Assembly: GCA_003170295.1 (NCBI GenBank)
Contig: PNAJ01000148.1
Coordinates: 3,946 to 67,945, forward strand
Direction of reading: 5' to 3'
From: Bryobacterales bacterium
GTDB taxonomy: Bacteria; Acidobacteriota; Terriglobia; Bryobacterales; Bryobacteraceae
DNA length: 64,000 bases
Part shown: positions 2,023 to 60,284 of the stretch, piece after piece
Layout of the letters: each line of letters starts with the position of its first letter
Position numbering within the stretch: position 1 is the stretch's first letter
The notes under the pieces: generated by a model
What the model saw: only the letters and a program-made list of their open reading frames with translations
What the model was told of the DNA's origin: nothing
The model's database searches: none
Program-made: the position numbers and the translations under genes

Positions 2023-2737
2023 GATCACCACTACCCAATCATACTGGTATTCCATCCCAAGGCAAATCCGCCTGCTGTCGCTGGTTTGTCTCTTCCTCCT
2101 GATTCCTCGCGTCAACGCTTTTCAATCCGAGCATCCCTTAAGCGGCCGCCGCATCGCCCCCGTGATGGGCGTCGGCGGTGCGGACTGGCTCGATCGCCAC
2201 GAACGCGAATCGGAGGAAAATCCGGACGGCGCTCTCGACGCCCTCGGCATTAAACCCGGCATGGTGGTCGCCGACGTCGGCGCGGGCACCGGATATATGA
2301 CGTTGAAGATGGCCACGCGGGTCGGCCCGTCGGGCAAGGTGTACGCCGAAGACGTGCAGCCGGAGATGCTCACCCGTTTACGGCAGAACGCGGCGGCGGC
2401 GAAGCTCGCCAATATCCAGACCGTGCTCGGCGGCGAGACCGATCCCAAACTGCCTCCGGGCGCGCTCGATTTGATTCTCCTGGTCGACGTGTATCACGAA
2501 TTCTCGCAGCCCCAAAAAATGCTGCGCAGAATGCGCGAGTCGCTGAAACCTGACGGAAGATTAGTGCTGCTCGAATACCGAAAAGAAGACCCGTCGATCC
2601 CGATTCGCCCGGAGCACAAAATGAGCGTGCAAGAGGTCAAACTGGAATTGGAGGCGGAGGGTTTCCATCTCGACCAGGTGCTCGAAACCCTGCCGCGCCA
2701 GCATATTCTCATTTTGACGAAGGTGAAGGTGAATTAG
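2021..2737 (+). CDS. Class I SAM-dependent methyltransferase with hydrophobic N-terminus
   Basis: Motif I VADVGAGTGYMT, then KVYAEDVQ and LDLILLVDVYHE. The start is uncertain because ATG 2021 overlaps the divergent start codon at 2020-2022. Confidence 0.8.
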   Translation: MITTTQSYWYSIPRQIRLLSLVCLFLLIPRVNAFQSEHPLSGRRIAPVMGVGGADWLDRHERESEENPDGALDALGIKPGMVVADVGAGTGYMTLKMATRVGPSGKVYAEDVQPEMLTRLRQNAAAAKLANIQTVLGGETDPKLPPGALDLILLVDVYHEFSQPQKMLRRMRESLKPDGRLVLLEYRKEDPSIPIRPEHKMSVQEVKLELEAEGFHLDQVLETLPRQHILILTKVKVN

Positions 2738-2926: not shown

Positions 2927-4018
2927 TCACCACAACACACTCTTGTCGATACTCTTGAGCGTCGGTCTGCCCATCAACATCATGGTCATTTCGAACTCGC
3001 GCCGCAGAATCTCGACGACTCGCGTCACACCCGCGGCGCCACCGACGCCCAGTCCCCACAAATAGGGCCGTCCGATCTGTACCGCGGTCGCGCCGCGCGC
3101 CAGCGCTTTGATGACGTCCGTACCGCGCCGAATGCCGCCGTCGACCAGAATCGGAATGCGTCCTTCGACTTTCTCGGCGACCAGCGGCAGCGCATCGATG
3201 GTCGCGGGAACCGTGTCTAGATTGCGCGCGCCGTGATTCGACACGATGATCCCGGCGACACCGGCTTTGACAGCAATCGCGGCGTCGTCCGGATTCAGCA
3301 CGCCCTTGAGCATCACCGGAGTTTTCGCGAAGCCGCGCAGCCAGTCGATATCTTTCCAGGCGAGCGTCGGGTCGAGATAATCCTTGCCCTTAAGGTTCGG
3401 CAGTTCCCTCGGAGGCAACTCCGCGCGCGAGCGATCCTCGCGATTGCGCGCGCCGAACGTAGGGGAATCGACGGTGACACACAGCGCGCGGCAGCCCGCC
3501 GCTTCGGCTCGCTGCACCAGTTCGCGCGTGAATCCGCGGTCGCGCTGCACGTAAAGCTGGAACCATACGGGACCGGTCGCGGCCTTGGCGACATCTTCAA
3601 TCTTCAACGAGGCGCTGCTCGAAATACACAGCGTTGCCTTCGCGGCGCCCGCCCCGCGCACCGACTCCAGATCGCCCTCCGGGTGAACGAAGCTCTGCGC
3701 GCCGGTGGGCGCGAGGACGATCGGAAACGCCAGCTCCTCGCCGAACAACTTGACGCGCGTGTCCACCTTGGAAACATCGACCAAAATGCGCGGCTTCAGG
3801 CGGATATGCTCGTAGGCTTCGTGATTCCAGCGCATCGTGATCTCGTCGGCGGAGGCGCCCATGATGCGCTCCCAAGCTCCATGCGAGATATGTTTTTGCG
3901 CTTCGACCTGAAAATCGAAGAGCGAGAACAGCGAATCGAGACGGGCTCGTTCCTGCGCGCCCACGCGCAGCGCCGTAAGTCCGAGCGCCGAGATCAGCAC
4001 TTCTCGCCGTGTTGGCAC
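2927..4018 (-). CDS. FMN-dependent alpha-hydroxy acid dehydrogenase/oxidase (LldD/glycolate oxidase family) with Tat-like N-terminus
   Basis: SNHGARNLD, ILVDGGIRRGTDV.KALA.GA and VQIGRPYLWGL motifs. A GTG at 4018 gives MPTRREVLISALGLTALRVGAQE. The ORF track starts further upstream at 4102. Confidence 0.85.
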   Translation of the reverse strand: MPTRREVLISALGLTALRVGAQERARLDSLFSLFDFQVEAQKHISHGAWERIMGASADEITMRWNHEAYEHIRLKPRILVDVSKVDTRVKLFGEELAFPIVLAPTGAQSFVHPEGDLESVRGAGAAKATLCISSSASLKIEDVAKAATGPVWFQLYVQRDRGFTRELVQRAEAAGCRALCVTVDSPTFGARNREDRSRAELPPRELPNLKGKDYLDPTLAWKDIDWLRGFAKTPVMLKGVLNPDDAAIAVKAGVAGIIVSNHGARNLDTVPATIDALPLVAEKVEGRIPILVDGGIRRGTDVIKALARGATAVQIGRPYLWGLGVGGAAGVTRVVEILRREFEMTMMLMGRPTLKSIDKSVLW

Positions 4019-4117
4019 AATGCGGATTATATAACCTTGTGTGGACGGGCAGAGTGGGGCAGCGCCATGCGCTGCCATGGGAGGAAACCGGAGGCGTCCC
4101 ACTCCGGCTCAGGAAAT

Positions 4118-4149
4118 CGGCGTTTATCCGCGTTCATCAGCGGCCAAAA
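4118..4149. repeat. REP family 5 unit (ATCCGCGTTCATCAGCGGCCAAA)
   Basis: The same core appears as an inverted pair at 29160-29239. Confidence 0.7.
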
Positions 4150-4185
4150 TACTCTTGTTCCGTGTAAATCGATTAAACTGACCCT

Positions 4186-4950
4186 TTGCCTCCCGCCATC
4201 ACCTTCGAAAAAATATCGCAGACCTTCGGCAGCTACACCGCCGTCGACGGCATCAATCTCGAAATCGCCGCGGGAAAATTTGTTTCCGTGGTCGGACCCA
4301 GCGGCTGCGGCAAATCGACTCTTCTCAATCTGGCCGCCGGATTGATCGCACCCACCCAAGGCTCCGTCTCCATATTCGGCGCACCCCTAACCGGCCTCGA
4401 CCGCCGCGCCGCCTACATGTTTCAGCAGGACGCTCTGCTCCCCTGGAAGACCGTACTTGAAAATGTCGGGCTCGGCCTCCGCTTTCGAGGGACGTTCACC
4501 GAGGCGAAGGCGCACCAGTGGGTCGAGCGCGTCGGCCTATCCGCCTTTGCCGATAAATTCCCGTCGCAGTTGAGCGGAGGCATGAGGAAACGCGTCGCCA
4601 TGGCGCAATGCTGGATCGTCGACCCCGACATCCTATTAATGGACGAGCCGTTCAGCGCCCTCGACGTCCACACCCGCATGCGCATGGAAGGCGAGCTGCT
4701 CGATTTGTGGACCGGATCGCCGAAAACCATTCTGTTCGTCACGCACGATCTCGAAGAAGCGCTTTCGCTATCGGACGAAGTTGTGGTCCTGTCCGCCGGC
4801 CCGGCCAGCCACATCATTGCCCGGCACCCGATCGATCTCCCACGTCCGCGCAATTTAATGGACATTCGCACCGAGCCTAGATTCGCCGAGCTATATCGCG
4901 AAATCTGGGCACAGTTAAAACAGGAGGTGCTCACCAGCTATGCGCGCTAG
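4186..4950 (+). CDS. ABC transporter ATP-binding protein (nitrate/sulfonate/taurine NitT/TauT-type)
   Basis: Walker A GPSGCGKST, Q-loop, signature LSGGMRKR and Walker B ILLMDEPF. TTG start. Confidence 0.9.
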   Translation: MPPAITFEKISQTFGSYTAVDGINLEIAAGKFVSVVGPSGCGKSTLLNLAAGLIAPTQGSVSIFGAPLTGLDRRAAYMFQQDALLPWKTVLENVGLGLRFRGTFTEAKAHQWVERVGLSAFADKFPSQLSGGMRKRVAMAQCWIVDPDILLMDEPFSALDVHTRMRMEGELLDLWTGSPKTILFVTHDLEEALSLSDEVVVLSAGPASHIIARHPIDLPRPRNLMDIRTEPRFAELYREIWAQLKQEVLTSYAR

Positions 4951-4971
4951 TGTCTTGACTCTGAAGTTCAG

Positions 4972-5077
4972 GTGGGGCGGTCACCCTGGACCGCGGCCGA
5001 CGCCCCCGTCGGCCTCTTTGAGTGCGTTCCCAGAGCCGGACCAGGGGGTCCGGCGCGGACGAGGGCGTCCGCCCCAC
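4972..5077. repeat. REP family 1 element (GTGGGGCGG...CCGCCCCAC termini)
   Basis: 106 bp with 9-11 nt inverted termini and internal mini-palindromes of GACGCCCxCGTC and GGACCxxxGGTCC type. A second copy lies at 55508-55609. Confidence 0.8.
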
Positions 5078-5212
5078 CTCGATTTATGTCGAGGACCTCA
5101 GCCGCGTTTGCGAAACTTCGTGCCTGTAACCTATTTGCCCCGTCTCGAATCATACCGTTCGAAATCAACGACGCACTCCGCTAGGAGCAATACGGTCGCA
5201 GATCAAGTGGCC

Positions 5213-5309
5213 GGCATCCGATGGGGACTGACCACTCTGTCCCGAGCCACGAGACGGCTGGTTTCCCTTATCCCCGGCGAGTGGACAGAGCGGTCTGTCT
5301 CCATCGGAT
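5213..5309 (+). mobile_element. MITE-like element, family 4 (short variant)
   Basis: About 29-bp terminal inverted repeats (GCATCCGATGGGGACTGACCACTCTGTCC / GGACAGAGCGGTCTGTCTCCATCGGATCC). The inner arms match the copies at 10617 and 60579. Confidence 0.7.
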
Positions 5310-5327
5310 CCCCGAGCACCCGCTGCT

Positions 5328-6083
5328 ATGCGCGCTAAAATCTCATTGCTGCTCTGGCAAATTCTGATCGCCGTGGCCTTTCTCTGCACCTGGCAAATGC
5401 TGGTGACCACGGGCAAGCTCGACAAGTTTTTCTTCAGCCGCCCCAGCGACATCGCAGGGCGCATTCTGACGTGGTTGCGCACCGGATCGATTTGGCCGCA
5501 CCTGGCAGTCACGCTGGAAGAGGCCGCGCTCGCCTTCGCGTTCGGTGCGGGCGCCGGAATCGCCTGCGGATTCGCCCTCGCGCGATCTCCCAAACTGGGC
5601 GCGCTTGCCGATCCCTTCATTCGAGTACTGAACGCACTGCCGCGCGTCGTGCTCGCTCCGATTTTCCTGCTCTGGTTCGGGCTAGGCATCTGGTCGAAGG
5701 TCGCCCTCGGCGTCACCGTCGTATTTTTCATCGTGTTTTTCAACACGCATCAAGGCGTTCGCGACGTGGACAAATCCGTCGTCGATAACGCGCGCATGCT
5801 CGGCGCGTCGGAATGGCAGCTCACCCGGCATGTTCTGATCCCGAGCGCGCTGACCTGGGTGTTTTCGAGCCTGCACATCAGCATCGGATTCGCGGTAATC
5901 GCGGTAGTGGTCGGCGAATATCTCGGCGCGTCGCGCGGCGTCGGCTATCTCATTTCGCAAGCCGAGGGAGTTTTCGATACCACCGGAGTCTTCGCGGGAA
6001 TGGCGGTGCTGAGCGCGTCGGTGTTACTGGTCGGATGGGGCGTAAATCGACTGGAACGATGGCTGCTGCGCTGGAAGTCGTGA
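5328..6083 (+). CDS. ABC transporter permease (SsuC/TauC-type, BPD_transp_1)
   Basis: Six-TM-like hydrophobic profile and an EAA-like loop ARMLGASEWQLTRHVLIPSA. Confidence 0.9.
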   Translation: MRAKISLLLWQILIAVAFLCTWQMLVTTGKLDKFFFSRPSDIAGRILTWLRTGSIWPHLAVTLEEAALAFAFGAGAGIACGFALARSPKLGALADPFIRVLNALPRVVLAPIFLLWFGLGIWSKVALGVTVVFFIVFFNTHQGVRDVDKSVVDNARMLGASEWQLTRHVLIPSALTWVFSSLHISIGFAVIAVVVGEYLGASRGVGYLISQAEGVFDTTGVFAGMAVLSASVLLVGWGVNRLERWLLRWKS

Positions 6084-6084
6084 A

Positions 6085-6792
6085 TCACGGCATCTGGGGG
6101 CGGCCGCTCTCAAGCATCTTCGCCACCCAATCGGCATGCGGCAAACCGCACATCGACAGAGCCTTCAGCTCCCGCTCTACGTCATACTCCACCCGCCGGA
6201 TTTCTGGCTTCGCGTCGTCCAGCAACAAGTAAGCAGCCCGCCGGTCGCCGTCGTGAGAAAGACTGACACTCCCTGTGTTGACGATCATTATCGATGAGGT
6301 CGTTCGCACAAATGACCGGTGAACATGCCCATAAACCGCAATTGGCCGCCTGAGCGGCGCATAAACCTTCTCCAACTCCGCGTCGCTCGCTTCCGGCATC
6401 GGTGCGCGCCAGCAACTCTCGGGACTGGCATGGACCAGAGCCATCGGACCATGAACTTGCTGAAACGGCAGCCCGCGCAGCCACGCGAGCCTTTCTTCTC
6501 CCAGCGCTTCCCGAGTCGCCGCCGCCATTTCTTCAATCAAATCGCCGATTGGCGACCGGCCAAAAAACTCCGTCAACGCCTCCGGCCGAAAGAGCATCTC
6601 ATCGGTATTGCCAAGCACCCCTTGCCAGCCGAGATCGCGAATCTGATCGACAATTTCCACGGGACTCGATCCGCCATGAGGCAGATCGCCGCCGTGGAGG
6701 ATCAAGTCGGGAGAAGTTTCGCGCAGATCCGCCAGCACTGCGTCGAACGCAGTCCGATTCCCGTGAATATCGGATACAATCGCGATGCGCAA
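6085..6792 (-). CDS. Metallophosphoesterase (YfcE/MJ0936-like)
   Basis: A TTG start gives MRIAIVSDIHGN. GD..HGG, GNTD and GHVH motifs follow. The start lies 1 nt after the upstream stop. Confidence 0.8.
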   Translation of the reverse strand: MRIAIVSDIHGNRTAFDAVLADLRETSPDLILHGGDLPHGGSSPVEIVDQIRDLGWQGVLGNTDEMLFRPEALTEFFGRSPIGDLIEEMAAATREALGEERLAWLRGLPFQQVHGPMALVHASPESCWRAPMPEASDAELEKVYAPLRRPIAVYGHVHRSFVRTTSSIMIVNTGSVSLSHDGDRRAAYLLLDDAKPEIRRVEYDVERELKALSMCGLPHADWVAKMLESGRPQMP

Positions 6793-8181: not shown

Positions 8182-8943
8182 TTAAGCGTTCGTTGGCGGA
8201 GCCTTAAACGACCTTATTTTGACGTATAACGCGGCTAATTCGGGGATGCTCATCTGCTCAGCGCGCAGGCGGCCTTCCTCCCAACCACCAATTTCATAAA
8301 GCGGCGCCAGGTTGTTGCGCAACGTTTTTCGCTTGTGACGGAAACATAGCGATGCGAACTTCAGAAAAGTACTTGTATCCGGGACTTCTGGAAGGCTGCG
8401 GCGCTCCAGGCGGACGACGGCGCTATCGACTTTGGGAGGCGGGCGAAACGCGTCCCGCGGAACCGGAAATAGGATTTCGGGGCGCGCGTGGATTTGCGTT
8501 TGCACGCTTAAATAGCCATAATCGCGAGTTCCCGGTTTTGCCGCCAATCTATCGGCTACCTCGGATTGCATCAGAAAAACGGCGCGGGTCCAGCCGTCTC
8601 CGAGCGCGAACACCTTTTCGAGAATTGGCGAAGTTATGTAGTAGGGCAGGTTGCCGGTGATGACGGCGCCGGAGAAATCGGTCTTGAGAACGTCGCCTTC
8701 GATCACTTCCAGGCGGCCTGCTTCCATGGCGTCGTGAAACTTTTGATGGAGATAGTGGACCAGGTGGGGATCGACTTCAATCGCCACTACTTTGTCGGCA
8801 CGTTCGAGGAGGGATTCGGTGAGCGCGCCTTTGCCGGGACCGATTTCGACAACCAGAGGCACGCGATCGCTGCAGGCGGCCTCGGCGATGCGATCGAGGA
8901 TGGATTTTCGAGAAAGAAAGTGCTGGCCGAATCGACGACCCAA
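8182..8943 (-). CDS. rsmA: 16S rRNA (adenine1518/1519-N6)-dimethyltransferase
   Basis: N-terminal GQHFL, VVEIGPG.G.LT and NLPYYI motifs typical of KsgA/RsmA. Confidence 0.9.
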   Translation of the reverse strand: MGRRFGQHFLSRKSILDRIAEAACSDRVPLVVEIGPGKGALTESLLERADKVVAIEVDPHLVHYLHQKFHDAMEAGRLEVIEGDVLKTDFSGAVITGNLPYYITSPILEKVFALGDGWTRAVFLMQSEVADRLAAKPGTRDYGYLSVQTQIHARPEILFPVPRDAFRPPPKVDSAVVRLERRSLPEVPDTSTFLKFASLCFRHKRKTLRNNLAPLYEIGGWEEGRLRAEQMSIPELAALYVKIRSFKAPPTNA

Positions 8944-9016
8944 CTTAGCCCTTTATCACTCTAGCAAGATGCGACAGATCCCCTGGCCGACGAGGTTGTG
9001 TGAAAACCCCGGCGTT

Positions 9017-9093
9017 GACCGCTCCCGGTGGTCGCGGTTCCAAAAAAATTCCACAGCGCGGTCTTGATAGAACCGCGACCATCGGGAGCGGTC
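9017..9093. repeat. REP family 2 inverted doublet (REPIN-like variant)
   Basis: GACCGCTCCCGGTGGTCGCGGTTC (9017-9040) and its reverse complement GAACCGCGACCATCGGGAGCGGTC (9070-9093). Confidence 0.85.
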
Positions 9094-9134
9094 CTTCACG
9101 GTTTCCACACAGACTAAAACGCCAGAGGTTATAA

Positions 9135-59545: not shown

Positions 59546-60284
59546 GTGGGGCCGCCAATATTGGCGGCAGCCGCCCTTTCAGGCGGCTCTGGCTCTGAGA
59601 ATTTTTCCTCTCCAAAACCACAACTAAATCATATGAAACGCTACGAGCGACGCCTCCCACACTGGGACGCAGTAGGCCAACCCCTCTTCGTTACTTTCCG
59701 CCTGCACGACAGCCTTCCCGTCAACCGCGTGTTTCCTCCATCTGAACTGACCACCGGGAAAGCGTTCGTCGCGATGGATCGCATCTTAAGATCGAGCAGA
59801 AACCGGCCCGAAGCATCTCTGCATCCCAGAAATCGCCGCGCTTGTAGCTACATCTCTACGCGAAGGCGACCGCCGATTCCTCCGCTACAAACTACATGCC
59901 TTTGTGGTCATGCCGAATCATGTTCATCTTCTGGTAACCCCCAACGTCGTTGCCACGCGATGGCTCGGGCCTCTGAAGGGTTTTACCGCCTATCAAGCCA
60001 ACCGAATCCTGGGTCGCGCCGGCAACCCATTCTGGCAACACGAAGGCTACGATCACCTCGTGAGATCGGACGAAGAGTTTGCTCGGATCCGCAGATATAT
60101 CGAAAACAATCCGGCATCCGCTGGCCTTGTTGCCGAACCGGGAGATTTCGAGTGGTCGAGTGCGTACGCAGGGCCGCCTGAAAGGGCGGCTGCCGCCACT
60201 AACTGACCCGCTTGTGGAGCAATCAACTGTTGAGGCAATAATGTGGGGCCGCCAATTTTGGCGGCAGGCGCCCTTTCTAGGCGG
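59546..60284 (+). mobile_element. RAYT-REP unit: REP3 - Y1 transposase (disrupted) - REP3 partial (inverted) - REP3
   Basis: REP3 units lie at 59546-59588 (+), 60173-60198 (-, partial) and 60243-60284 (+), bracketing the HUH/Y1 gene. Confidence 0.8.
59633..60206 (+). pseudogene. REP-associated tyrosine transposase (RAYT, IS200/IS605-like Y1 HUH), disrupted by a +1 frameshift
   Basis: MKRYERRLPHWD..G..LFVTFRL is in one frame. ..DRAETGPKHLCIPEIAALVATSLREGDRRFLRYKLHAFVVMPNHVHLLV...RYIENNP is in the next frame. A TAA at 59787-59789 lies inside CTTAAG. Deleting one A restores MDRILDRAETGPK. Confidence 0.75.

What the first reader, a model, noticed from the sequence alone, without database searches (positions are those of the whole stretch)
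4937..5337. A 388-bp composite repeat insertion with 13-bp direct repeats splits an ABC operon at a former stop/start overlap
**Seen in sequence.**
- GCTATGCGCGCTA occurs at 4937-4949 and again at 5325-5337.
- The first copy supplies the ATPase stop (..SYAR-TAG). The second supplies the permease start (ATG CGC GCT AAA).
- Collapsing the two copies recreates an 11-nt overlapping junction, ATGCGCGCTAA.
- The intervening DNA holds a REP1 element (4972-5077) and a family-4 MITE (5213-5309).

**Inference.** The repeat block inserted, or was built up, at the gene junction with a target-duplication-like outcome that preserved both reading frames. It may now modulate the relative expression of the two cistrons.
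Basis: seen in the sequence. Interest (0 to 1): 0.6.

Follow-up and report, generated by a model that had tools for sequence, protein, structure and literature searches.

The report
Repeat insertion splitting overlapping transporter genes
In an uncultured soil acidobacterium, 375 bases of repeat DNA landed in the 11-base stop/start overlap of two ABC-transporter genes; a 13-base copy of the junction kept both genes whole, and a reading frame across the insert may still pass ribosomes to the second gene.

Summary
GCTATGCGCGCTA occurs at 4937-4949 and 5325-5337 and nowhere else in the 6.2-Mb genome. The first copy ends the ATPase gene (TAG 4948-4950). The second starts the permease gene (ATG 5328).

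The insertion reading is supported. Ten related loci carry an uninterrupted stop/start overlap. Two of them have exactly the predicted ATGCGCGCTAA.

The insert is more composite than reported:
- A right-truncated MITE shell carrying REP1 (4947-5100).
- The right 84 nt of a second MITE (5101-5184). These two together are bounded by CTAG.
- 28 unique bases.
- A hairpin-family copy (5213-~5321) that alone among about 40 copies lacks the family's A/T tracts.

The 13-mer is not a family target-site duplication, because other copies have no flanking repeats. The same genome has sister insertions at other gene junctions with 16- and 46-nt duplications, also empty in relatives.

The first copy keeps the ancestral SD-like motif and ATG. 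From it, a stop-free 132-codon ORF crosses the insert and ends at TAA 5336-5338 over the permease ATG. This resembles MIRU-type coupling relays. The statistics are only suggestive (about 1-2%). I rate it a new member of a known kind, of moderate interest.

The parts
4186..4950 (+). ABC transporter ATP-binding protein gene (NitT/TauT-type, SsuB/TauB/NtrCD-like). Its stop TAG 4948-4950 is made of the last two bases of 13-mer copy 1 plus the first inserted base.
   Evidence: ORF. PF00005 and NCBIfam sulfonate/taurine/nitrate ATPase models match, all below their equivalog cut-offs.
4923..4928 (+). SD-like AGGAGG inside the ATPase codons, 12 nt upstream of ATG 4940. It is the ancestral ribosome-binding context of the permease start and is not duplicated.
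   Evidence: Read. The same (C/G)A(G/A)GAGGT motif lies upstream of the overlapping ATG in all relatives. No such motif precedes ATG 5328.
4937..4949 (+). Copy 1 of the 13-nt junction duplication GCTATGCGCGCTA. It contains the ancestral permease ATG (4940).
4940..5338 (+). Bridging ('relay') ORF of 132 codons. It starts at the ancestral permease ATG and has no internal stop. It ends at TAA 5336-5338 in the ATPase frame of copy 2, overlapping permease ATG 5328 by 11 nt.
   Evidence: The other five frames have 2-6 stops. The frame is open in 5.3% of dinucleotide shuffles. It has no protein family.
4947..5100 (+). MITE-like shell 'A' with left TIR CTAGTGTCTTGACTCTGAAGT, carrying the REP1 palindrome. 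The right TIR is missing (about 14-20 nt truncated).
   Evidence: Alignment with full copies at C79, C81, C107 and C125. Full length is about 174 nt.
4970..5079 (.). REP1 core palindrome with 48-nt arms, 77% complementary.
   Evidence: I1. About 90-100 blast hits on both strands, which is about 45-50 copies.
5101..5184 (+). Right-hand 84 nt of MITE family 'B', ending in its TIR ..GACGCACTCCGCTAG. The left ~70 nt of the family are absent.
   Evidence: Full copies are about 154-157 nt. The 234-nt block 4951-5184 is bounded by CTAG at 4947-4950 and 5181-5184.
5185..5212 (.). Single-copy filler of unknown origin.
   Evidence: Blast coverage is 1 (self only). It shows no similarity to the flanking genes.
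5213..5321 (.). The conserved core is 5221-5304. The A-tract and T-tract that flank the stem in every other copy found by the anchor search are replaced here by the complementary TCCGAT/ATCGGA.
   Evidence: (I2). The variant was not found in 300 other genomes of the family.
5314..5325 (+). GAGCACCCGCTG, 10/12 complementary to 4921-4932 (CAGGAGGTGCTC). Together they form the predicted closing helix of the whole insert.
   Evidence: I4. The MFE fold of 4915-5345 is -202 kcal/mol with z = -7.5.
5325..5337 (+). Copy 2 of the 13-nt duplication. It supplies permease ATG 5328 and, with A 5338, the TAA that ends the bridging ORF.
5328..6083 (+). ABC transporter permease gene (BPD_transp_1; SaoP/TauC/SsuC-like). 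The N-terminus MRAKISLLL is conserved in relatives.

Best explanation
**Ancestral state (shown).** The ATPase stop and the permease start overlapped by 11 nt (ATGCGCGCTAA). This is a conserved coupling architecture in this transporter family.

**What happened here (shown and inferred).** In this species' lineage, 375 nt of repeat DNA now lies inside that overlap, flanked by a 13-nt duplication of the junction. The duplication lets the ATPase keep a stop and the permease keep its ATG and first codons. I infer that the insert was built in at least two steps:
1. A ~141-nt piece containing the hairpin-family copy arrived together with the 13-nt duplication.
2. A 234-nt chimera of two CTAG-ended MITEs then inserted at the CTAG formed by copy 1 plus the first inserted base.

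**The duplication is not a family TSD (shown).** Its length is not fixed. Sister events in the same genome duplicate 16 and 46 nt. It therefore probably comes from repair or replication at a staggered break, or from a short tandem duplication that was later colonised. Only junction-duplicating events survive selection at such sites.

**How the permease is probably translated now (inferred).** The Shine-Dalgarno-like motif was not duplicated. Ribosomes probably start at the old ATG (4940), as they did ancestrally, and translate a 132-codon bridging ORF through the highly structured insert. They would then terminate at TAA 5336-5338 and re-initiate at ATG 5328 in the ancestral stop/start geometry. 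This is a MIRU-like relay.
For: **Empty sites and conservation of the overlap**
- L002 (G019) and L034 read exactly ATGCGCGCTAA. L028 (permease 93% aa), L029, L003, L030-L033 and L035 are overlapping.
- In most of the roughly 75 homologous loci read, a candidate permease start overlaps or abuts the ATPase stop.

**The insert is repeat DNA**
- It belongs to mobile families that occur elsewhere in this genome. Two of the families and the hairpin core also occur in relatives.
- The locus is identical in 10 assemblies.

**The duplication is not a family property**
- There is no excess of flanking repeats around 37 hairpin-family copies or 26 REP1 copies, nor around the repeat families of the sister cases.
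- Sister junction duplications of 16 nt (contig C6) and 46 nt (contig C114) have empty sites in G004, G003 and G009.

**Two-step history**
- CTAG bounds the MITE chimera on both sides (4947-4950 and 5181-5184).
- Full copies of both MITE families begin and end with CTAG-type termini.
- G019 has TTAG at the site where G000 contig C107 has CTAG plus the element.

**Relay ORF**
- The frame from ATG 4940 has no internal stop, while the other frames have 2-6.
- It is open in only 5.3% of shuffles, and 388 = 1 mod 3 brings it to the TAA.
- Removing the 234-nt (78-codon) chimera leaves a 54-codon ORF with the same start and stop. Both inferred steps therefore preserved the bridge.
- No SD-like motif precedes ATG 5328.
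- No promoter-like or terminator-like site lies in the spacer.
- The insert folds very stably, z = -7.5.
- In G003 an independent insertion of a different palindromic family at the same junction is crossed by a 46-codon ORF. It runs from the old ATG to a TGA that overlaps the new ATG as ATGA.
- Precedent: MIRUs (PMC12548453, section 11, citing Supply et al. 1997).
Against: **No expression data**

**The relay statistics are weak**
- The open frame is only modestly improbable and was noticed post hoc.
- Other REP1 copies also lack stops in that frame, so part of the openness is a family property.
- In G003 a second frame is also open through the element.
- The sister case on contig C114 has no single bridging ORF. 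Homologous loci L088 and L099, which also have repeats in the spacer, have none either.
- The AGGAGG motif is also a conserved Glu-Val codon context and lies 12 nt from the ATG, so its role as a Shine-Dalgarno sequence is assumed.

**Mechanism and history are inferred**
- The mechanism of the duplication is not shown.
- No allele with the hairpin piece alone was found.
- The CTAG target-site reading rests on diverged flanks.
Confidence: 0.6

Rival explanations
1. The bridging ORF is a chance by-product of GC-rich, stop-poor repeat DNA. The permease would then be translated independently: by SD-independent initiation on the operon mRNA, or from a promoter inside the insert. Alternatively it is simply expressed less. 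The hairpins would act, if at all, as mRNA stabilisers or processing sites, as REP elements do in E. coli operons.
For: - The frame is open in 5.3% of shuffles, which is not rare.
- Other REP1 copies are also stop-free in this frame.
- Two of three frames are open through the G003 element.
- The sister case on contig C114 and loci L088 and L099 lack a continuous bridge.
- The spacer folds into very stable hairpins.
Against: - There is no promoter-like hexamer pair and no SD-like motif before ATG 5328.
- The phase (388 = 1 mod 3), the stop-free frame and the 3n length of the later 234-nt insertion all coincide.
- The overlap architecture is strongly conserved in homologues, which argues that coupling matters for this pair.
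Confidence: 0.35
2. The duplication came first. Replication slippage made a 13-nt tandem duplication (GCTATGCGCGCTA twice). This un-overlapped the two genes without damage and created a new CTAG at the copy boundary. CTAG-targeting MITEs and the hairpin element then colonised this newly neutral site.
For: - A tandem copy would read ..GCGCGCTA|GCTATG.., giving the TAG stop now seen and a CTAG site.
- Both MITE families have CTAG termini.
- Other copies of the families have no long flanking repeats.
- Duplication lengths vary among the sister cases.
Against: - The sequence just before copy 2 is ..CCCGCT, not ..CTA as this model predicts.
- No relative shows the tandem intermediate.
- The hairpin piece next to copy 2 has no CTAG ends.
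Confidence: 0.2
3. A single transposition event inserted a pre-formed composite element, and its transposase makes a 13-bp staggered cut. The 13-mer would then be a classical target-site duplication.
For: Exact 13-nt direct repeats lie immediately outside the insert. Some IS families do make duplications of this size (general knowledge).
Against: - The composite has no terminal inverted repeats. Its left end is a MITE TIR and its right end is unrelated.
- The junction between the two MITE fragments and the whole block are unique in this genome and in 40 relatives.
- No other copy of any component has comparable flanking repeats.
- No autonomous element with these TIRs was found.
Confidence: 0.05
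4. The long spacer is ancestral and the relatives lost it, or it is an assembly chimera.
For: None found.
Against: - Ten relatives at graded distances (permease 77-93% aa identity) all have overlaps.
- The overlap is the rule in most of the roughly 75 homologous loci read.
- The spacer is made of mobile repeat families.
- Ten independent assemblies agree base for base.
Confidence: 0.02

Closest known systems
MIRUs (mycobacterial interspersed repetitive units; Supply et al. 1997, as summarised in PMC12548453, section 11)
   Same: Both are repeat DNA sitting at start codons or intercistronic junctions of operons. In both, an ORF through the repeat is coupled to the downstream gene by an overlapping stop/start, so the insertion costs little expression.
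   Different: - MIRUs are one family of 40-100-bp units that bring their own ORF and a -4 (ATGA) overlap.
- Here three unrelated palindromic or MITE families form a 375-nt composite.
- Here the start, the stop and the 11-nt overlap are host sequence recreated by a 13-nt junction duplication.
- Here the ORF is 132 codons and is not a family feature.
REP/BIME elements inside E. coli operons, such as malE-malF and hisJ-hisQ (general knowledge; review PMC3184786)
   Same: Both are GC-rich extragenic palindromes, present in tens of copies, lying between cistrons of an ABC transporter operon and forming very stable RNA hairpins.
   Different: - The E. coli elements lie in ordinary intergenic spacers with no junction duplication and no bridging ORF.
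- They are thought to act through mRNA stability.
- An association with a RAYT transposase could not be shown here.
Bacterial MITEs inserted within operons or fused to ORFs (Chunjie of Geobacter with 9-bp direct repeats, Nezha, Correia, RPE of Rickettsia; PMC3184786)
   Same: The two MITE units have TIRs, are about 155-175 nt long, occur in multiple copies, have CTAG-type ends and fold into long hairpins. MITE reading frames fused to host ORFs are known.
   Different: - The flanking 13-mer does not match the short CTAG-type ends of these families.
- The MITE copies here are truncated and fused to each other.
- The translated frame is a separate relay ORF, not a fusion to either gene.

Membership tests
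MITE (the two TIR-bounded units at 4947-5184) | Terminal inverted repeats, small size (<300 bp), no transposase gene, multiple copies | tested here: met
   - First family: TIR CTAGTGTCCTGACTCTGAAGT, full length about 174 nt.
- Second family: TIRs CTAGTGGTCTGCGTC and GACGCACTACACTAG, full length about 154-157 nt.
- Several to about 30 ends per family were found.
- The window copies are truncated.
MITE (the two TIR-bounded units at 4947-5184) | Fixed-length target-site duplication shown by filled versus empty sites | tested here: inconclusive
   CTAG is present at both ends of full copies and of the chimera. G019 has TTAG at one orthologous site. However, intergenic flanks are too diverged for a clean empty site.
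MITE (the two TIR-bounded units at 4947-5184) | A related autonomous IS with the same TIRs | tested here: not met
   No TIR pair in this genome encloses a transposase. The one 2-kb pair encloses ordinary genes. The genome is only 83% complete.
REP/REPIN | Short GC-rich imperfect palindrome, extragenic, tens to hundreds of copies | tested here: met
   REP1 core has 48-nt arms and about 45-50 copies. The hairpin family has about 40-45 copies.
REP/REPIN | Association with a RAYT (Y1 transposase) gene flanked by the repeats | tested here: inconclusive
   There are 11 PF01797 matches over the cut-off in the genome. Only one has hairpin-family copies nearby, and none has REP1 flanking it.
MIRU-like coupling relay | An ORF through the repeat, co-oriented with the operon, whose start overlaps the upstream stop and whose stop overlaps the downstream start | tested here: met
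   ORF 4940..5338. ATG 4940 lies 8 nt before TAG 4948-4950, and TAA 5336-5338 lies 8 nt after ATG 5328.
MIRU-like coupling relay | The ORF and its overlaps are a built-in property of the repeat family | tested here: not met
   Start, stop and overlaps come from the duplicated host junction. Other copies of the families lie in ordinary intergenic DNA, and most differ from this copy by indels that are not multiples of three.
MIRU-like coupling relay | The ORF is translated and downstream expression depends on it | not testable with these tools
This needs ribosome profiling or reporters.
Classical transposon target-site duplication | The same duplication length at other insertions of the same element | tested here: not met
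   There is no excess of flanking repeats of 8 nt or more at 37 hairpin-family and 26 REP1 copies, and none of 9 nt or more around the repeat cores of the sister cases. Junction duplications in this genome are 13, 16 and 46 nt.

The most novel reading that the evidence does not exclude
Overlapping or abutting stop/start junctions in this acidobacterium are repeatedly invaded by REP-containing DNA. The insertion route copies a variable stretch of the junction: 13, 16 and 46 nt in the verified cases here. Unchecked notes from this scan describe 14 and 16 nt in other phyla. That would be an undescribed insertion or repair pathway, not a transposase-type fixed stagger. Where the ribosome-binding site is not copied, selection would keep a stop-free bridging ORF in the right phase, so that termination-reinitiation still feeds the downstream gene. 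MIRU-type relays would then be a general, convergent way for selfish repeats to live inside operons.
Probability: 0.25. Interest if true: 0.65.

Novelty: new member of a known kind. Interest (0 to 1): 0.45.

Why it matters
Tightly coupled gene junctions are usually thought to be closed to mobile DNA. This locus has clean empty sites in relatives. It shows how an insertion there can be harmless: the junction is duplicated, and a reading frame across the insert may carry ribosomes on.

Three things give a concrete, testable system for two questions, namely how repeats colonise operons and how much translational coupling constrains them:
- There are sister events with duplications of different length in the same genome.
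- There is an independent hit on the same junction in a related species.
- The inferred second insertion is exactly 78 codons and stop-free.

For annotation, the case warns that a 132-codon 'hypothetical protein' made of repeat DNA can be a coupling device and not a gene.

Tried and rejected
- **Rfam.** The search of 4000-6500 at E <= 1 found nothing.
- **Promoters and terminators.** No promoter-like or terminator-like site lies in the spacer.
- **Intermediate alleles.** All 10 contigs that encode the identical proteins are base-for-base identical. The closest other population (L028) is already empty. No allele with the hairpin piece alone was seen.
- **Filled versus empty sites for single copies of the three families, against G019, G004 and G003.** Intergenic flanks are too diverged to define target duplications. 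There was only a hint of a TTAG/CTAG target.
- **Decayed large tandem duplication.** The unique parts of the spacer show no significant similarity to the ATPase 3' end or the permease 5' end, so I rejected this.
- **The hairpin variant without A/T tracts as a subfamily.** It was not found in 300 other genomes of the family. Only an unrelated CCGAGGGGGAC variant turned up in one other genus.
- **An autonomous IS with the two MITE TIR types.** None was found.
- **RAYT association.** Inconclusive.
- **Relay ORFs in more distant homologous loci with long spacers (L080, L088, L099).** None has a continuous bridge. L082, L086, L102 and L107 simply have an extra gene.
- **Protein family of the 132-aa ORF.** None.
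Full report
**Observation.** The 13-mer GCTATGCGCGCTA is present at 4937-4949 and 5325-5337. It has no other match in the window, even with one mismatch (0.08 expected). It has no other exact copy in the 6.2-Mb genome (0.18 expected).

The upstream ORF 4186..4950 is an ABC ATP-binding protein of the sulfonate/taurine/nitrate (NitT/TauT) type. The downstream ORF 5328..6083 is the matching permease. Copy 1 carries the last ATPase codons, and with the next base forms the stop TAG. Copy 2 carries the permease ATG and first codons.

Ten contigs from independent metagenome assemblies are identical to the window over 4186-6083. The arrangement is therefore real and fixed in this population. Earlier notes of this scan describe the organism as an uncultured soil acidobacterium.

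**Empty sites.** A DNA search of 40 relatives found three orthologous loci. A scan of metagenome contigs with the permease found 80 more homologous loci.
- The closest ones all have a single, uninterrupted junction.
- G019 (L002) and L034 read TATGCGCGCTAA, which is exactly the 11-nt overlap predicted by collapsing the two copies.
- L028 (permease 93% identical) and L029 read TATGCGCGGTAA.
- L003, L030, L031, L032, L033 and L035 have overlaps of 11-23 nt.
- In most of the roughly 75 homologous loci read, a candidate permease start overlaps or abuts the ATPase stop.
- G019 carries REP1 copies elsewhere in its genome, and other relatives carry the second MITE family and the hairpin-family core elsewhere.

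**Anatomy of the insert (4950-5324, 375 nt).**
1. **4947-5100: a MITE-like shell.** It has the left TIR CTAGTGTCTTGACTCTGAAGT and carries the REP1 palindrome (arms 4970-5017 and 5032-5079, about 45-50 copies). Full copies are about 174 nt. This one lacks the right TIR.
2. **5101-5184: the right 84 nt of a second MITE family.** Full length is about 155 nt, with TIRs CTAGTGGTCTGCGTC.. and ..GACGCACTACACTAG.
3. **5185-5212: single-copy filler.**
4. **5213 to about 5321: a copy of an abundant hairpin family.**
   - The family consensus is GCGCGAAAAAT[GGGGACTGACC.CTCTGTCC ... GGACAGAGCGGTCTGTCCCC]ATTTTTCGCCCCGTCCACAA.
   - That consensus looks like a two-way intrinsic terminator.
   - The window copy is the only one of about 40 in which the A- and T-tracts are replaced. 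The replacement is the mutually complementary TCCGAT/ATCGGA.
   - This variant was not found in 300 other genomes of the family.

The junction between the two MITE fragments is unique in this genome and in the relatives searched. RNA 4915-5345 folds to -202 kcal/mol (z = -7.5). A closing helix pairs 4921-4932 with 5314-5325.

**History.** The 234-nt block 4951-5184 is bounded by CTAG on both sides (4947-4950 and 5181-5184). Full copies of both MITE families begin and end with CTAG-type termini. At one orthologous site, G019 has TTAG where this genome has CTAG plus the element.

I therefore read the MITE chimera as a later insertion at the CTAG formed by copy 1 plus the first base of an older, ~141-nt insert containing the hairpin. 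This order is inferred. No intermediate allele was found.

**The 13-mer is not a family target-site duplication.**
- Flanks of 37 hairpin-family copies and 26 REP1 copies share no more sequence than flanks of unrelated copies.
- I scanned this genome for sequences at the end of a long ORF that recur 30-900 nt downstream at the start of another long ORF. It returned the window case and three others with repeat-containing inserts.
  - 16 nt (GGAGAGGTAGAATAGT, contig C6, 144-nt insert).
  - 46 nt, extending to about 56 with mismatches (contig C114, 113-nt insert, splitting an 8-nt ATGGCTGA overlap).
  - 31 nt (contig C64), which I did not pursue.
- Relatives have the uninterrupted junction for the first two: G004 for C6, and G003, G004 and G009 for C114.
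- The repeat cores in these inserts also show no flanking duplications elsewhere.

Junction-duplicating insertions therefore recur in this genome with variable duplication length. That argues against a fixed transposase stagger. It favours either repair or replication at staggered breaks, or short tandem duplications that were later colonised. In both cases selection would let only junction-preserving events survive. I found no trace of a decayed larger tandem duplication in the window.

**How the pair may still work.** Only 3 nt upstream of the ATG were duplicated. The SD-like AGGAGG (4923-4928), which precedes the overlapping ATG in all relatives, now serves only ATG 4940. Nothing similar precedes ATG 5328, and no promoter-like or terminator-like site lies in the spacer.
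- From ATG 4940 a 132-codon frame runs without a stop through the whole insert. The other five frames have 2-6 stops.
- Because 388 = 1 mod 3, this frame enters copy 2 in the ATPase frame and ends at TAA 5336-5338. That stop overlaps ATG 5328 exactly as the ATPase stop overlapped it ancestrally.
- Removing the 234-nt chimera, which is exactly 78 codons, leaves a 54-codon ORF with the same ends. Both inferred steps therefore kept the bridge.
- In G003 a different, abundant palindromic family has independently entered the same junction. A 46-codon ORF from the old ATG crosses it and ends in a TGA overlapping the new ATG as ATGA.

This is the logic proposed for mycobacterial MIRUs (PMC12548453, section 11, citing Supply et al. 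1997). Ribosome transit would also melt the hairpins, in line with the unfolding and re-initiation models of coupling reviewed there.

**Limits on the relay reading.**
- The frame is open in 5.3% of dinucleotide shuffles. With the phase requirement this gives roughly 1-2%, and the pattern was noticed post hoc.
- Other REP1 copies also lack stops in that frame.
- A second frame is open through the G003 element.
- The C114 sister case and the distant loci L088 and L099 have no continuous bridge.

I put the relay at about 0.4 and the insertion with junction duplication at above 0.95.

**Comparison and verdict.** The parts are ordinary kinds: REP-like palindromes and MITEs, as reviewed in PMC3184786. 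The functional logic has a precedent in MIRUs. Other notes of this scan describe similar junction duplications (14 and 16 nt) and relay ORFs in other phyla. Those are unchecked leads, not independent evidence.

Four things are new here:
- The composite, stepwise build.
- The exact empty sites in relatives.
- The variable-length junction duplications within one genome.
- A second hit on the same junction in a related species.

I class it as a new member of a known kind, of moderate interest. The open question is the mechanism that copies the junction.

Noticed in passing
L004 (G003:C23) 2055-2201, minus strand: An independent insertion lies at the same ATPase-permease junction in a related species. 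It is a ~115-nt palindromic element of a different, abundant family (at least 40 copies in G003; its arms are also frequent in G000 and G019). The old start and N-terminal codons (MPAKISDL) remain upstream. A new ATG follows the element, and a 46-codon ORF bridges the two, ending in ATGA.
   Followed up: partly
G000 contig C6, about 8928-9103 (minus strand); outside the window: A 16-nt duplication, GGAGAGGTAGAATAGT (SD-like motif plus stop), flanks a 144-nt insert that holds a ~46-nt REP present in more than 80 copies. The junction is uninterrupted in G004:C65. A 50-codon ORF crosses the insert and ends at the second-copy stop.
   Followed up: partly
G000 contig C114, 72496-72700; outside the window: A 46-nt duplication (about 56 nt with mismatches) of an 8-nt ATGGCTGA stop/start overlap flanks a 113-nt insert upstream of a short-chain dehydrogenase gene. 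The junction is uninterrupted in G003:C11, G004:C115 and G009:C28. There is no continuous bridging ORF.
   Followed up: partly
G000 contig C64, 45393-45728 (minus strand); outside the window: A 31-nt exact duplication, TTCGAATTCTAGAACGGTATCGGCTTGCATG, flanks a 274-nt insert that contains a high-copy repeat core. It was not checked against relatives.
   Followed up: no
window 5213-5321 versus about 40 copies genome-wide (for example window ~60588): The hairpin family has a conserved GC stem flanked by AAAAAT and ATTTTT, followed by CGCCCCGTCCACAA. This looks like a bidirectional intrinsic terminator. Only the copy inside the ABC operon has lost both tracts, and it did so by complementary replacement.
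   Followed up: partly
G000 C63:58980-59136 and C125:22808-22963: The REP1 core palindrome occurs inside two different TIR shells: the CTAGTGTCCTGAC type and the CTAGTGTAGTGCGTC type. This suggests a modular exchange of cores between MITE families.
   Followed up: no
window about 59883-60110 (G000:C44:63828-64055): A Y1-transposase (PF01797) homologue lies about 480 nt upstream of a hairpin-family copy. The genome has 11 such matches over the cut-off, but they show no consistent association with any of the repeat families.
   Followed up: partly
L088 and L099 (distant homologous ABC loci from metagenomes): The same gene junction holds spacers of about 150-250 nt containing GGGTCCCGGCGTTCGCCGGGACGAC-type repeats. 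An ATGTC(G/C)C motif is present both at the old stop and at the current start in L088.
   Followed up: no
L020, L022, L026, L027 (Logan contigs) and L021: Short-read assemblies break inside REP1 (contig ends at window 5013 and 5050). One contig end (L021) carries GG instead of CC at 5029-5030, matching the family consensus. This is probably a repeat-collapse artefact.
   Followed up: no
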